Virus record (IMG/VR): IMGVR_UViG_3300020429_000539 | Coordinates: 172,263 to 236,262 of that record | Reading direction: 5' to 3' (one strand) | Length of the DNA: 64,000 nt | From: a virus | Taxonomy: Duplodnaviria; Heunggongvirae; Uroviricota; Caudoviricetes | Shown: positions 20,449-23,655 of the stretch, in pieces | How the letters are laid out: every line of letters begins with the position of its first letter | How positions within the stretch are numbered: the stretch's first letter is position 1 | The notes under the pieces: model-generated | Database searches by the model: none | What the model saw: the letters and a program-made list of their open reading frames with translations, nothing else | Told to the model about the DNA's origin: nothing | Program-made: the position numbers and the translations under genes

Positions 20449-20507
20449 CGCGCACAAAAGATGGGTGCTACTCGACCACATACGCTCGACATCAAGAGCC
20501 GATGACC

Positions 20508-20738
20508 ATGAAGATTCGACTCATCAAAGAATACGATGACCACGAACCCGTTGTTCTCGGCACGGTCACAACTCACAACTCTACGCTACACGAGAACGCG
20601 GCTCGTGCCCTCATCGATGTGGCATGGTCTGAGTTCCAGTCAACCGAGCCTGACTGCGATTCCGATTTTCCCGATTGGCTTGTCAAGAATCATCCATTCG
20701 AGATGGTTACTGACGACACGATGGATGTCATTCTGTAG
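20508..20738 (+). CDS. hypothetical protein
   Basis: ATG 25 nt after CCACATA 20476. Confidence 0.8.
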   Translation: MKIRLIKEYDDHEPVVLGTVTTHNSTLHENAARALIDVAWSEFQSTEPDCDSDFPDWLVKNHPFEMVTDDTMDVIL

Positions 20739-20785
20739 CCACATAGGTACGGCGGCTATAGTCGTGAAGCGAAAGGAGCAACGAC

Positions 20786-21616
20786 ATGGCAGCACGATAC
20801 ACTTCCATTTCCCGCGACGAGATTCAGGCGTTCTTCGACAGGCACCATCTCGATTGGACCCCGAACCGTTCGGGCGATGAACTCGTCTTCGACCACTCGC
20901 TTGCGCTCGGCTACACGCTCCGCGTCAACACCAGCCTGAGGTTCGACCGCGATACCTCGCGTCCCTCTGGTAGCGACGCCATCCGAACTTTTGCCTTTAT
21001 CGACGGCGGACGCGGACTCGTCAAGTCGATGGTCACGAAGCGCACGCAGAACTGGCGGCGCAACCTCGCTGACCGTATCGACGAGGTTCGCCAGTTGGCC
21101 GAGTTCCGCATCGAGGACCAGATGGAGCGTGAGGCCAACCGTGCCGAAGCCGCCCAAGCCGAGGAGGAGGTTCGCCCGAACCTGCGGCATATCCCCGAGT
21201 GTGTCGCCATCCACAACGGAACCTACACCATCAAGAACCGTTCGACGGGCGACCACCGCACGCTCGAAATCAAGACGGTCCTGCCCGACGACTCGTTGCC
21301 CGACAACCACTTCAAGAACCAGAACAGCGGACGGCGCACCGTGTCTCTGCTTACGGGCCCCGACAACACGAGCGACTACACGATGATCGGTTGGCTCGAA
21401 GAGCGCAACATCCGCATGACGCAGCGTTACCGCGACAGCCGCCCCACACGGGCTATTGCCTACATGCTGTTCGACCTCGCGCTCCACGGCGAGAACAGCC
21501 CCTACGCGGCGCAGTATGAACTTCTCAAGGAAGGGCGTTGCTTGCGCTGCAATCGCAAACTGACCACGCCCGAGTCGATTTCTAAAGGAATTGGACCGAT
21601 TTGCGAAGGACTATAA
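20786..21616 (+). CDS. DUF6011-domain protein
   Basis: C-terminal CLRCNRKLTTPESISKGIGPIC; SD GAAAGGAG. Confidence 0.8.
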   Translation: MAARYTSISRDEIQAFFDRHHLDWTPNRSGDELVFDHSLALGYTLRVNTSLRFDRDTSRPSGSDAIRTFAFIDGGRGLVKSMVTKRTQNWRRNLADRIDEVRQLAEFRIEDQMEREANRAEAAQAEEEVRPNLRHIPECVAIHNGTYTIKNRSTGDHRTLEIKTVLPDDSLPDNHFKNQNSGRRTVSLLTGPDNTSDYTMIGWLEERNIRMTQRYRDSRPTRAIAYMLFDLALHGENSPYAAQYELLKEGRCLRCNRKLTTPESISKGIGPICEGL

Positions 21617-22102
21617 GGCCCAACACCTGAATAGGAGGTATGGACCAACATAAATACTGCAACGGATGTAAGAAAACGCTGCTCTTAGATAAGTTTGGGC
21701 AGCGAATGAAACGAGGAAAGAAGACATATCGTGCGCGCTGTAAAAAGTGTGATGCGGATTCTGCTCGAAAATGGAGACAAAATAATCCTGAGAAGTTTCG
21801 AGAACAAAAAGCGAAATGGAACAAGGCAAACCCTCGCGCACGAACTCTATCAAAATGGAGATCATTTGCCCGTAAGCATGGGCTCGACCCTCAAGAAATA
21901 ACCGAGATGATTGAGGGACATTGTGGGAAATGTGATATTTGCGGAGAAACACAAAGTAAAAACGGAACTTCTTTGCATGTCGATCATTGTCATTCTACTC
22001 ATAGGATTCGAGGACTGCTTTGCGACCGATGCAACATTGCTATCGGTCACTTACGAAATGATCCCCAACTTTGTCGAAAGGCCGCAAAATATCTCATGTA
22101 AC
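21578..22102 (+). mobile_element. 525-bp homing-endonuclease insertion carrying a replacement 3' end of the DUF6011 gene
   Basis: Removal rejoins PES-IESGIGPVCAGR* and restores ATGA coupling to 22138; insert is AT-rich. Confidence 0.8.
21640..22101 (+). CDS. endonuclease VII-family (HNH) homing endonuclease
   Basis: CDICG...LHVDHCHSTHRIRGLLCDRCNIAIG; N-terminal Zn finger CNGC..CKKC. Confidence 0.9.
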   Translation: MDQHKYCNGCKKTLLLDKFGQRMKRGKKTYRARCKKCDADSARKWRQNNPEKFREQKAKWNKANPRARTLSKWRSFARKHGLDPQEITEMIEGHCGKCDICGETQSKNGTSLHVDHCHSTHRIRGLLCDRCNIAIGHLRNDPQLCRKAAKYLM

Positions 22103-22137
22103 ATTGAGAGCGGCATCGGACCTGTGTGCGCTGGCCG

Positions 22138-22572
22138 ATGAACTTCACGACCGCCGAACTCGACCACCAAGAGCGTATCGCTCGCCACCGTGACGGAGTT
22201 GCAGCACTGCAACTCGACCGCCCCTCAACCCTCGCCGAATGCGTAGAAGCACTTGTAGCCCTTTACGAGCAGAACTGGAACGCTGACGCATTTCAGATCA
22301 ACTGTGGCGATTGCGATGCCTTTGCGATGGAACTGATACAGATTTGGACGGGCGAGGACCGCGAGACAGATGACGCTGTGGTGCTGTGGGGCGAAGACCT
22401 CGAAGACGACGAAGACCGTTCCGAGGATATCGCGGGTCTTCATGCTTGCGCGAAGATTGAGGGACGCTACTACGACAGCGAGTGTCCGGAGGGCGAAGAT
22501 GATTGGCGGGCACTTCCATGTTTTGCCCGCTACTTTGGAAGCGTTCTAAAAGCGCAACCGCACACCGCCTAA
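22138..22572 (+). CDS. hypothetical protein
   Basis: MNFTTAELDH..., coupled to displaced original stop. Confidence 0.75.
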   Translation: MNFTTAELDHQERIARHRDGVAALQLDRPSTLAECVEALVALYEQNWNADAFQINCGDCDAFAMELIQIWTGEDRETDDAVVLWGEDLEDDEDRSEDIAGLHACAKIEGRYYDSECPEGEDDWRALPCFARYFGSVLKAQPHTA

Positions 22573-22892
22573 CAGACAATGAAACTGTTTAAGGTAAAAT
22601 ATGCACGATACCTAATACCCATAAGTCGCCGACTGGCTTGGGTTTAGGTTCGTTTTTTAAAAGGAATGACACTCACACCACCGAACATCGTCATCGGGGT
22701 TTGTTTTTATTAAACACACGCTGCCTAACACGCACAAGTCATTGAAAACAAAGAGTTTATGGTTTATTATTTATAATATAAATGCACACCACCGAACAAA
22801 AAGATGGGTGCATGATTCACGCCATGACAGTTGCGCGCTAGTCGAGCCACATACAAGTGAACGGTGGCGTGGTAGACTAAAGGAGCAGCAAA

Positions 22893-23096
22893 ATGTTTGA
22901 TTCCAACTTCAAGCCGTCACCCAACTCGACCGCCATTTGCATCGAGATTCCCGAGGACTTGCCGCCCGAGCGTCGCCGTGATTTGGCGCAGCGTCTTGCC
23001 CGCGCAGCGGCTCAGGAGGGAGCGCAGGGAGCCCGCGTTCTGTGGAGCGAGGTCTACGATGACCGCCTTGGGCCGCCAGTCTTCTACCAGCCGTGA
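22893..23096 (+). CDS. hypothetical protein
   Basis: SD AAAGGAG begins at predicted +1. Confidence 0.75.
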   Translation: MFDSNFKPSPNSTAICIEIPEDLPPERRRDLAQRLARAAAQEGAQGARVLWSEVYDDRLGPPVFYQP

Positions 23097-23175
23097 CCCA
23101 CATAGCGTAGTGGTTTGATGCTGATGTCTGAGCAAAGCAGCGCATCTCTGAAGCGCTCAGCGAGGAGCAACGACA

Positions 23176-23655
23176 ATGGCAGTCAAAATCACCATTCGCC
23201 GCCGAGGACGGTTCTCTGTTCCGAATCTGACTTTCACCAACCAGTGTGGCCGCGAGGGTCAGCGAGAGTTCGACTTTTCGTGCCGCATCACGGTTGCGCG
23301 GCTCGATGACCAAGGCTTCGTGTGCGACAACTTCAAAGTAGTGCCCGCCCTTCAGAATAAGTTTGGAAGGGGCCGATGGCTCGCGTCGTGCGAGCAGTTG
23401 GCTGGCGCGGGCGTGTGGTTGATGCACGAACTCTGCGGAGGTCGCGCCACCCGCATCGAGTTCGAGGTCAGTCCCATCGCTGAGGCCGGCGTGACTGTTG
23501 AGTGGGAGTCAGGCGACGAGTTGCCCGACTTCTACCCCAGGCAACTCGACCGTGTTGAGCGTCAGCGAGGGATGCGCAACCATCGCACAAACACAGGCGC
23601 GAATCAGTGGGAGAGGATGAACCCGCGAGAGGTTCTGGCGGCGGCTCCGTTCTAA
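23176..23655 (+). CDS. hypothetical protein
   Basis: SD GAGGAG, 159 aa. Confidence 0.8.
   Translation: MAVKITIRRRGRFSVPNLTFTNQCGREGQREFDFSCRITVARLDDQGFVCDNFKVVPALQNKFGRGRWLASCEQLAGAGVWLMHELCGGRATRIEFEVSPIAEAGVTVEWESGDELPDFYPRQLDRVERQRGMRNHRTNTGANQWERMNPREVLAAAPF

What the first reader, a model, noticed from the sequence alone, without database searches (positions are those of the whole stretch)
21578..22141. Homing endonuclease that supplies a recoded replacement C-terminus for the gene it invades
Seen: the DUF6011 gene now ends PES-ISKGIGPICEGL* in AT-rich codons (att tct aaa gga att gga ccg att tgc). Right after the EndoVII stop lies the orphaned GC-rich original IESGIGPVCAGR* (att gag agc ggc atc gga cct gtg tgc), whose TGA overlaps the next ATG (22138). 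Deleting 525 bp restores a seamless gene and translational coupling. Known: a comparable HEG plus foreign 3' exon arrangement was described in fungal mitochondrial atp6. Inference: intronless homing into a conserved Zn-binding motif, with the recoded copy preserving function and conferring cleavage immunity.
Basis: partly seen in the sequence, partly recalled or inferred. Interest (0 to 1): 0.75.

Follow-up and report, generated by a model that had tools for sequence, protein, structure and literature searches.

The report
Selfish nuclease carrying spare gene tail
A selfish nuclease gene has inserted 12 codons before the end of a gene in a half-megabase uncultured phage, bringing a foreign copy of those codons and stranding the original ones behind it; this is known from fungal mitochondria and was seen elsewhere in this scan, so it is a clear example rather than a new principle.

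Summary
A 525-bp block of low G+C (window 21578-22102) sits inside the 3' end of a DUF6011 gene. It holds a foreign 12-codon tail with its stop, a 23-nt spacer and a 153-aa Endo VII-type (DHHRN, beta-beta-alpha-Me) endonuclease gene. The native tail (22103-22141) lies just behind it and still overlaps the next gene's ATG.

Related phages show three states:
- Empty alleles with exactly the predicted seamless gene and ATGA overlap.
- The occupied allele, apparently fixed in this phage lineage.
- A scar allele that keeps the foreign tail and 12 nt of spacer but lacks the nuclease gene, the orphan and the downstream gene.

All five nearest relatives of the nuclease that I could place also touch the 3' end of an otherwise unrelated DUF6011 gene. 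None of 80 more distant relatives does. None of 42 other DUF6011 loci carries such a nuclease.

Best reading: a free-standing homing endonuclease clade that targets the conserved DUF6011 motif and entered this lineage with part of its donor's gene end. Cleavage, immunity and zinc binding are untested. The tail is a foreign homologue (5 of 12 residues differ), not a synonymous recoding.

This scan has reported the same layout in other phages (thyA, prohibitin, nadV, ligase, rIIA, gp10). I rate it a new member of a known kind.

The parts
20786..21577 (+). Native body of the DUF6011 gene (codons 1-264), G+C 0.62, GC3 0.81
   Evidence: ORF. It is 78-80% identical in protein to P0002, P0003 and P0004. 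Composition. The true left crossover may lie anywhere in about 21565-21577: the Ser codon TCG at 21575-21577 differs from the AGC/AGT of all relatives.
21578..21616 (+). Foreign in-frame replacement tail, ISKGIGPICEGL plus TAA
   Evidence: GC3 is 0.17. DNA identity is 54-59% to native tails and 85% to the tail of the scar allele L007. It keeps the invariant G, G, P and C of the motif, so the chimeric protein still passes the Pfam cut-off.
21617..21639 (+). Spacer of the mobile cassette, with AGGAGG just before the nuclease ATG
   Evidence: GGCCCAACACCTG recurs as GGCCCAACGCCCG after the tail in the scar allele L007, and as GGGCCTAATCCTG between an unrelated DUF6011 gene and its nuclease gene in L098. 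No sigma-70-like promoter or terminator lies in the insert.
21640..22101 (+). Free-standing endonuclease gene, 153 aa: N-terminal 4-Cys ribbon plus C-terminal Endo VII (beta-beta-alpha-Me) domain
   Evidence: PF02945, E 2.5e-17. PDB sequence hits are Hpy99I (1e-5) and T4 Endo VII (4e-4). C7, C10, C34, C37, C98, C101, D115, H116, H118, R124, C128, C131 and N132 are invariant in 13 relatives. The AF2 model has pLDDT 92.5; the best folds are Hpy99I (probability 1.00) and T4 Endo VII (0.99). It is the only Endo VII-family gene in the 488-kb genome.
21578..22102 (+). The whole 525-bp insert relative to empty alleles, with ATT at both edges
   Evidence: Alignment with the empty alleles L002 and L011. 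G+C is 0.432 against 0.62 in the flanking gene.
22103..22141 (+). Orphaned native tail, IESGIGPVCAGR plus TGA, untranslated
   Evidence: Identical in protein to the P0002/P0180 tail. All 7 DNA differences from L011 are synonymous. Weak Pfam DUF6011 hit at profile positions 24-35. The frame upstream is closed, and it is out of frame with the nuclease gene.
22138..22572 (+). Downstream 144-aa gene whose ATG overlaps the orphan's TGA; no family found
   Evidence: In empty alleles the same gene starts in ATGA overlap with the DUF6011 stop. It is 97-99% identical in DNA to L002. It is absent from the scar allele. No Pfam match.

Best explanation
The 153-aa ORF is a free-standing homing endonuclease of the Endo VII-motif (DHHRN) class. 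It belongs to a small clade that lives at the 3' end of DUF6011 genes.

Inferred steps:
- The enzyme cuts nuclease-free DUF6011 alleles in or near the DNA that encodes the conserved motif C..CNRKLTTPESI..GIGP.C.
- The break is repaired from a genome that carries the nuclease gene.
- When the clade entered this G+C-rich phage lineage, only the motif region was homologous. The left end recombined inside the motif. Repair then copied the donor's last 12 codons, its stop, a 23-nt spacer and the nuclease gene.
- The new DNA was joined illegitimately, at an ATT, to the right-hand break end.
- The start of the orphan therefore marks roughly where the break was, near the Ser264/Ile265 codons.
- The nuclease gene, which has no promoter of its own, is probably read from the upstream transcript.
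- The site is split, and one half replaced, so the carrier is probably not cut.

Shown here:
- The gene is chimeric, and its DUF6011 domain still scores as intact.
- The native tail is kept as a silent orphan that still carries the start region of the next gene.
- The insert appears fixed in this lineage.
- A sister lineage keeps the foreign tail and part of the spacer but lacks the nuclease gene, the orphan and the downstream gene.
For: 1. Anatomy and composition are as described.
2. Empty alleles in three sub-lineages have the native tail, and the ATGA overlap wherever the downstream gene is on the contig.
3. The orphan clusters with native tails (77-82% DNA identity). The in-frame tail does not (54-59%).
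4. All DHHRN residues and both zinc-ribbon Cys sets are intact. The motif is C-terminal, as in the endonuclease clade of Fang et al. 2018. The fold matches Hpy99I and T4 Endo VII.
5. Target association. The five nearest relatives whose contigs I could read all touch the 3' end of a DUF6011 gene, and those genes differ in size and background: P0025, P0027, P0028, P0031 and P0051 (43-48% identity). None of 80 more distant relatives has the motif within 1.5 kb. None of 42 other DUF6011 loci has such a nuclease (positive controls).
6. The spacer is conserved between the window, L007 and L098.
7. The scar allele is seen on four contigs (L007-L010). It has a low-GC3 tail (0.25, against 0.71 in the gene body) and lacks about 965 bp (window 21630-22594).
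8. Scar and empty alleles occur in the same samples.
9. There is no intron signal and no promoter or terminator in the insert.
Against: - No cleavage or mobility data exist, and the phage is uncultured.
- No donor was found. Nothing lies between 50% and 99% identity to the nuclease in 1.84 billion representatives.
- No empty allele of this exact lineage was found, so recent mobility here is not shown.
- The other clade members whose DNA I could read (L013, L098, L103) show no orphan. The usual insertion is therefore simply behind the stop codon, and the tail duplication may be a one-off accident of an illegitimate event.
- AGGAGG sits only 1 nt before the ATG, which is an unusual spacing.
- A variant with the invariant Cys37 changed to Gly circulates (L014, L015). 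This could mean decay has begun.
Confidence: 0.8

Rival explanations
1. The Endo VII ORF is a working phage gene, either the genome's Holliday-junction resolvase or a functional partner of the DUF6011 protein. On this reading it sits beside DUF6011 genes because the two proteins act together, not because one targets the other.
For: It is the only Endo VII-family gene in the 488-kb genome. It lies next to DUF6011 genes in six backgrounds. It looks fixed in this lineage.
Against: - Syntenic relatives lack it at this locus and keep the DUF6011 gene intact.
- Its composition differs sharply from the neighbouring DUF6011 gene (0.43 against 0.62 here; about 0.38 against 0.54 in L013).
- None of 42 other DUF6011 loci has one.
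- The catalytic motif is C-terminal behind a zinc ribbon, the layout of the endonuclease and restriction clade (F-CphI, Hpy99I). T4-type resolvases have it N-terminal.
- A partnership does not explain the duplicated tail.
Confidence: 0.06
2. The cassette arrived by ordinary illegitimate or homeologous recombination between phages, and the nuclease played no part. Alternatively it has been inert since arrival, so the layout is a fossil rather than a working homing system.
For: The whole region is highly mosaic among relatives. The donor is unsampled. No empty allele of this lineage was found. A C37G variant exists.
Against: All catalytic and zinc ligands are intact, and the protein is identical on 13 contigs. 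The clade-wide position at DUF6011 3' ends is hard to obtain from random recombination. The left junction falls inside the one stretch that is conserved between otherwise unrelated DUF6011 genes.
Confidence: 0.1
3. The A+T-rich tail and spacer are native to an L007-like phage lineage. On this reading the window acquired them by recombination with that lineage, and the L007 allele is a donor-like state rather than a scar.
For: L007-L010 carry the tail and 12 nt of spacer without any nuclease gene. The two tails are 85% identical.
Against: - In L007 the tail is also compositionally foreign (GC3 0.25 against 0.71 in the gene body).
- The spacer recurs next to a nuclease gene in the unrelated L098.
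- Homologous exchange with an L007-like donor would have removed the 144-aa gene instead of leaving an orphan in front of it.
Confidence: 0.04
4. The insert is a group I or II intron, or an intein-like element, that is spliced out so that the native tail is used.
For: Removing exactly 525 bp (a multiple of 3) restores the native reading frame.
Against: No Rfam family matches 21300-22400 at E up to 1. Tail, spacer and ORF fill all but 1 nt of the insert, which leaves no room for a ribozyme core. The in-frame tail is a true DUF6011 tail followed by a stop codon.
Confidence: 0.01

Closest known systems
Mobile endonuclease ORFs (mORFs) that make gene hybrids in fungal mitochondria: Allomyces macrogynus atp6; Glomus sp. 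atp6, atp9, cox2 and nad3; Rhizopus atp9; Mortierella cox2 (as described in Beaudet et al. 2013, PMC3630166)
   Same: The order is inserted foreign C-terminal in frame with the gene body, then the endonuclease ORF, then the native C*-terminal stranded downstream. The native copy is much closer to relatives than the inserted copy: here 77-82% against 54-59% DNA identity; in Glomus 91-98% against 64-81%.
   Different: The host is a roughly 0.5-Mb phage, not an organelle. The nuclease is of the Endo VII/DHHRN type, not LAGLIDADG or GIY-YIG. The replaced piece is only 12 codons. The nuclease ORF is separate, with its own stop, spacer and start, not fused in phase. The orphan still carries the overlapping start of the next gene. 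A scar allele without the nuclease gene was also found.
F-CphI of cyanophage S-PM2 and the DHHRN (Endo VII-motif) homing endonuclease family (Fang et al. 2018, PMC6083498)
   Same: It is a free-standing phage endonuclease with the Endo VII catalytic motif at the C-terminus. The D, H, H, R and N residues and the flanking CxxC pairs are all present.
   Different: I made no direct comparison with the F-CphI sequence. F-CphI targets psbA next to an intron-bearing allele, whereas this clade sits at DUF6011 gene ends. The activity of the window's enzyme is untested.
Free-standing phage homing endonuclease genes placed beside the conserved gene they cut: T4 mobE (nrdB; Wilson and Edgell 2009, PMC2790892) and T3 gene 5.3 beside the DNA polymerase gene (Bonocora and Shub 2009, recalled from memory and not read here)
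   Same: The gene lies between or behind conserved genes. It has no promoter and depends on upstream transcription (mobE). It is present or absent among related phages. Flanking DNA is converted together with the nuclease gene.
   Different: Those genes sit in intergenic space and do not replace part of a coding sequence or leave a duplicated gene end.
Hpy99I, a beta-beta-alpha-Me type II restriction endonuclease (PDB 3FC3)
   Same: It is the best match in the PDB by sequence (E 1e-5) and by fold (probability 1.00). The match covers both the N-terminal Cys-rich part and the catalytic domain.
   Different: No methylase gene lies next to the window's ORF. Identity is 22% and overall superposition is poor (TM 0.35). 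The context is a mobile cassette in a phage gene.

Membership tests
Endo VII-motif (DHHRN) homing endonucleases (Pfam PF02945 catalytic domain) | Pfam Endonuclease_7 match above the curated cut-off | tested here: met
   63 bits against a cut-off of 23.6, E 2.5e-17, residues 79-152.
Endo VII-motif (DHHRN) homing endonucleases (Pfam PF02945 catalytic domain) | Catalytic D, H, H, R and N (T4 D40, H41, H43, R54, N62) flanked by CX2-4C and CX2C zinc ligands | tested here: met
   D115, H116, H118, R124 and N132, with C98xxC101 and C128xxC131. The residues are invariant in 13 relatives. The criteria come from PMC6083498.
Endo VII-motif (DHHRN) homing endonucleases (Pfam PF02945 catalytic domain) | Motif at the C-terminus (endonuclease clade) rather than the N-terminus (resolvase clade) | tested here: met
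   The motif occupies residues 95-140 of 153, behind a 4-Cys ribbon and three helices. I built no tree that includes F-CphI.
Endo VII-motif (DHHRN) homing endonucleases (Pfam PF02945 catalytic domain) | Beta-beta-alpha-Me fold | tested here: met
   The AF2 model has pLDDT 92.5. Foldseek gives Hpy99I at probability 1.00 and T4 Endo VII at 0.99.
Endo VII-motif (DHHRN) homing endonucleases (Pfam PF02945 catalytic domain) | Site-specific cleavage of the nuclease-free allele | not testable with these tools
   This needs an enzyme assay.
Free-standing homing endonuclease gene (intronless homing) | Present or absent at one and the same locus among related genomes, with foreign composition | tested here: met
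   Occupied: the window, L014 and L015. Empty: L002-L006, L011, L100-L102 and the P0181 contig. G+C is 0.43 against 0.62.
Free-standing homing endonuclease gene (intronless homing) | Consistent association of the nuclease lineage with one conserved target sequence | tested here: met
   The window and its five nearest placed relatives all sit at DUF6011 3' ends. None of 80 distant relatives does, and none of 42 other DUF6011 loci carries the nuclease.
Free-standing homing endonuclease gene (intronless homing) | Super-Mendelian inheritance with co-conversion of flanks in mixed infection | not testable with these tools
   The phage is uncultured. Only indirect signs exist: the foreign tail itself, and a possibly longer low-GC3 tract in L007.
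mORF-type gene hybrid (Allomyces atp6 type) | Inserted C-terminal in frame with the gene body, then the endonuclease ORF, then the native C-terminal downstream | tested here: met
   21578-21616, 21640-22101 and 22103-22141.
mORF-type gene hybrid (Allomyces atp6 type) | Native copy closer to relatives than the inserted copy | tested here: met
   DNA identity is 0.77-0.82 against 0.54-0.59. In protein the orphan is 12 of 12 identical to P0002.
mORF-type gene hybrid (Allomyces atp6 type) | The hybrid, not the native tail, is expressed | not tested
It follows from the stop codon at 21614-21616 and the closed frame before the orphan.
Group I or II intron, or intein | Ribozyme core, or an in-frame protein-splicing domain | tested here: not met
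   No Rfam match at E up to 1. Stop codons separate the tail, the nuclease ORF and the orphan.

The most novel reading that the evidence does not exclude
A small DHHRN endonuclease clade is specialised on the DNA that encodes the DUF6011 motif, and it can jump between unrelated phages because that roughly 60-nt motif is the only homology it needs. When the recipient has no intergenic space (stop and start overlap), it survives by importing its donor's gene end.

On this reading the three natural states (empty, occupied, and a scar with a foreign, presumably uncuttable tail) record a full gain-and-loss cycle that ends in a resistant allele rather than a re-invadable one. The sharp local divergence at exactly the tail would be a footprint of repeated cutting and patch repair: window and L002 differ at 15 positions in about 52 nt, next to 53 identical nt on one side and 1 kb at 97% identity on the other.
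Probability: 0.3. Interest if true: 0.65.

Novelty: new member of a known kind. Interest (0 to 1): 0.5.

Why it matters
- It shows how a selfish nuclease can enter the coding part of a gene without destroying it, and without an intron or intein.
- It does this in a huge phage whose genes are packed so tightly that stop and start codons overlap.
- It assigns a natural target, the DUF6011 motif DNA, to an uncharacterised branch of the Endo VII-motif endonucleases. It also predicts where the cut falls (near codons 264/265), which makes the specificity directly testable.
- The scar allele shows that short stretches of foreign codons at gene ends can be the only trace of past invasions. That matters when reading mosaicism and odd codon usage in phage genes.
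- Such nucleases may also act in competition between co-infecting related phages. Several allele types do occur in the same samples.

Tried and rejected
- blastn of window 20500-23000 against 50,697 phage records found no match.
- The full DUF6011 protein used as a query against IMG/VR found no relative.
- An exact pattern for the foreign tail found nothing in IMG/VR.
- An exact pattern for the reconstructed empty junction found nothing in IMG/VR or in metagenome contigs. A pattern for the orphan plus the next gene's start found nothing in metagenome contigs.
- The donor search failed. Nothing lies between 50% and 99% identity to the nuclease.
I therefore could not look for reads that join 21577 to 22103, for mixed occupied and empty populations, or for expression.
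- Intron reading: rejected.
- A promoter of its own for the nuclease gene: none found.
- 'DUF6011' occurs in no searchable paper.
They found no phage case. The library is partial, and Bonocora and Shub 2009 could not be opened.
- The other clade members whose DNA I could read (L013, L098, L103) and 42 further DUF6011 loci show no second orphan.
- I considered deriving the phylogenetic order of the three states from flanking identity. I dropped this because the locus is too mosaic.
Full report
**Observation**

- A 276-aa ORF (20786-21616) ends ...PESISKGIGPICEGL*.
- After a 23-nt spacer comes a 153-aa ORF (21640-22101).
- One base after its stop lies att gag agc ggc atc gga cct gtg tgc gct ggc cga tga (22103-22141), encoding IESGIGPVCAGR*.
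- The TGA of that stretch overlaps the ATG (22138) of a 144-aa gene.

Pfam places DUF6011 (PF19474) at residues 249-274 of the first protein, at 42.9 bits against a cut-off of 26.6. It places Endonuclease_7 (PF02945, E 2.5e-17) in the second protein. The 144-aa product has no family.

G+C drops from about 0.62 to 0.41-0.45 exactly over 21575-22100. GC3 is 0.81 in the gene body, 0.17 in the in-frame tail, 0.36 in the nuclease gene and 0.58 in the orphan.

The window is part of a 488-kb virus record with direct terminal repeats. That genome has one Endo VII-family gene. It also has one DUF6011 gene, plus a weak second hit that is the orphan.

**Relatives give three allelic states**

A protein search found three lineages 78-80% identical to the DUF6011 protein, and their contigs are syntenic with the window.

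*Empty alleles.* In the P0003 lineage (L002-L006) and the P0002/P0180 lineage (L011, L100-L102), the gene ends IE(T/S)GIGPVCAGR*. P0181 ends IESGIGPICAGRA* and also overlaps the next gene by 4 nt. Wherever the downstream gene is on the contig, the stop overlaps its ATG as ATGA. These loci contain no Endo VII gene.

Alignment shows that the window differs from them by an insert at 21578-22102, with ATT at both edges.

The orphan is 12 of 12 residues identical to the P0002 tail. It is 77-82% identical in DNA to native tails, and all 7 differences from L011 are synonymous. The in-frame tail is only 54-59% identical to native tails.

*Occupied allele.* Short contigs from two other assemblies (L014, L015) are identical to the window across both junctions apart from one SNP. 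The exact chimeric protein is on 76 contigs and the exact nuclease on 13. Every full-length member of the 90% cluster that I read, and the one fragment that reaches the C-terminus, has the foreign tail. The insert therefore looks fixed in this lineage.

*Scar allele.* The P0004 lineage (L007-L010, four contigs) ends ITKGIGPICEGM*. This tail is in A+T-rich codons (GC3 0.25 against 0.71 in its gene body) and is 85% identical in DNA to the window's foreign tail. It is followed by GGCCCAACGCCCG, which matches the window's spacer. The sequence then joins directly to the intergenic DNA that follows the 144-aa gene in the window, at about 22595. Relative to the window it lacks about 965 bp: the rest of the spacer, the nuclease gene, the orphan and the downstream gene.

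The simplest reading is that the nuclease gene was lost by deletion from an occupied ancestor and left a foreign tail. The alternative is that this tail is native to L007. That is unlikely for three reasons: the tail is compositionally foreign there too, the spacer recurs beside a nuclease gene in an unrelated phage (below), and homologous exchange with such a donor would not leave an orphan.

Scar and empty alleles occur in the same samples: 3300017987 holds L007 and L101, and ERZ27256778 holds L008 and L011.

**The nuclease**

Its sequence aligns with T4 Endo VII and with Hpy99I. It has:
- C98xxC101, D115-H116-C117-H118, R124, C128xxC131 and N132. These are the D, H, H, R and N residues and zinc ligands that Fang et al. 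2018 showed to be essential in F-CphI and used to define the DHHRN family.
- An N-terminal C7xxC10...C34xxC37 ribbon.

All of these residues are invariant in 13 relatives. The motif is C-terminal, as in the endonuclease and restriction clade of that paper and unlike the resolvases. An AF2 model (pLDDT 92.5) finds Hpy99I and T4 Endo VII as its only convincing folds.

The family is very large: 96,616 representatives at E up to 1e-3. Nothing lies between 50% and 99% identity to this protein, so the donor is unsampled.

**Target association**

All five nearest relatives that I could place are in contact with the 3' end of a DUF6011 gene, and those genes are otherwise unrelated.
- P0025 (47% identity): its ATG directly follows the TAA of a gene of at least 275 aa that runs off the contig end (L013).
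- P0027 (47%): 13 nt behind a 135-aa gene.
- P0028 (43%): 35 nt behind a 137-aa gene.
- P0051 (48%): behind a 131-aa gene. Its true start is 33 nt after the stop, and its spacer GGGCCTAATCCTG resembles the window's (L098).
- P0031 (46%): convergent, overlapping the end of a 171-aa DUF6011 gene by 55 nt, with an aberrant C-terminus (L103).

In contrast, none of 80 more distant relatives (28-46% identity) from IMG/VR has the motif within 1.5 kb. None of 42 other DUF6011 loci has an Endo VII gene or a second motif fragment (positive controls).

The motif C..CNRKLTTPESI..GIGP.C is nearly invariant across very different proteins. This is the kind of sequence that homing endonucleases favour. The nuclease genes are also A+T-richer than their neighbours, which argues against a co-inherited functional pair.

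**Mechanism (inferred)**

The enzyme cuts nuclease-free alleles in or near the motif DNA. Between close relatives, repair would simply copy the gene into the space behind the stop codon, as in L013 and L098.

In this lineage there is no intergenic space, and only the motif was homologous to the donor. One-sided homologous invasion within the motif, followed by illegitimate joining at ATT, would give exactly what is seen. The order is recipient body, donor tail, donor spacer, nuclease gene, then the recipient's right-hand break end, which begins at the Ile265 codon. This predicts a cut near codons 264/265.

The Ser264 codon TCG differs from the AGC/AGT of all relatives, so the left crossover may lie a few bases further upstream.

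The insert has no promoter or terminator, like T4 mobE. No intron signal is present.

The chimeric domain still scores well above the Pfam cut-off, so function is probably kept. Immunity from cleavage is plausible, because the site is split and one half replaced, but it is untested. 'Zinc-binding' is also untested, since only three Cys are conserved.

**Comparison and novelty**

The layout is that of the mORF gene hybrids of fungal mitochondria (Allomyces atp6; Glomus atp6, atp9, cox2 and nad3). There too the native C*-terminal matches relatives and the inserted one does not.

My literature searches found only organellar cases and no phage case, but the library is partial.

This scan has reported the same layout in other phages: thyA, prohibitin, nadV, ligase, rIIA and gp10. 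I did not check those notes.

Four things are particular here:
- the nuclease class (DHHRN);
- the clade-wide tie to one short motif;
- the very short replaced piece;
- the natural scar allele.

I class it as a new member of a known kind.

**Unexplained**

Between the window and L002:
- the 53 nt left of the tail are identical;
- the 1 kb to the right is 97% identical;
- the roughly 52 nt of the tail itself differ at 15 positions, almost all synonymous;
- the rest of the gene differs by about 20%.

A conversion patch or repeated break repair at the target would explain this pattern, but ordinary mosaicism cannot be excluded.

Noticed in passing
window 21748 (L014:234, L015:234): In two independent short assemblies of the same occupied allele, T is replaced by G. 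This turns the invariant Cys37 of the nuclease's N-terminal zinc ribbon into Gly (protein P0024). A second variant, R68Q (P0185), also exists. This may be early decay of the nuclease after fixation.
   Followed up: partly
window 21512-23137 compared with L002: There are no mismatches in 21512-21564 and about 3% over 22136-23137. In contrast, the roughly 52 nt of native tail (21565-21577 plus 22105-22135) carry 15 mismatches, and the gene left of 21511 differs by about 20%. This is a sharp divergence patch exactly at the presumed target site.
   Followed up: partly
window 23176-23655: The 159-aa gene here is shared with L007 and L100. In L002-L006 it is replaced by an unrelated 137-aa gene at the same position, and identity to L002 drops to 0.37-0.55. 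This is a cassette swap two genes downstream of the insert.
   Followed up: no
L103:561-1633: The nuclease relative P0031 lies convergent to a DUF6011 gene and overlaps its 3' end by 55 nt. Its C-terminus departs from the family after the catalytic domain, as if the ORF now runs into the antisense of the DUF6011 tail. It may be an inverted or decaying copy.
   Followed up: partly
window 22847-22854: CCACATAC lies 40 nt upstream of the 67-aa gene (ATG at 22893) and is conserved in L002 and L007. L007 also lacks 27 nt (about 22810-22836) just upstream of it.
   Followed up: no
L007:4700-4825: In the scar allele, GC3 is already low (0.40) over the last roughly 110 nt before the tail. Identity to L002 falls from 0.90-0.98 to 0.62-0.73 from gene position about 631 onward. 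This suggests a longer foreign tract than in the window.
   Followed up: partly
L098:1435-1500: The gene caller started the nuclease relative P0051 at 1501. The in-frame ATG at 1435 adds 22 residues that include the conserved CNGC of the zinc ribbon, so the true protein is 161 aa.
   Followed up: yes
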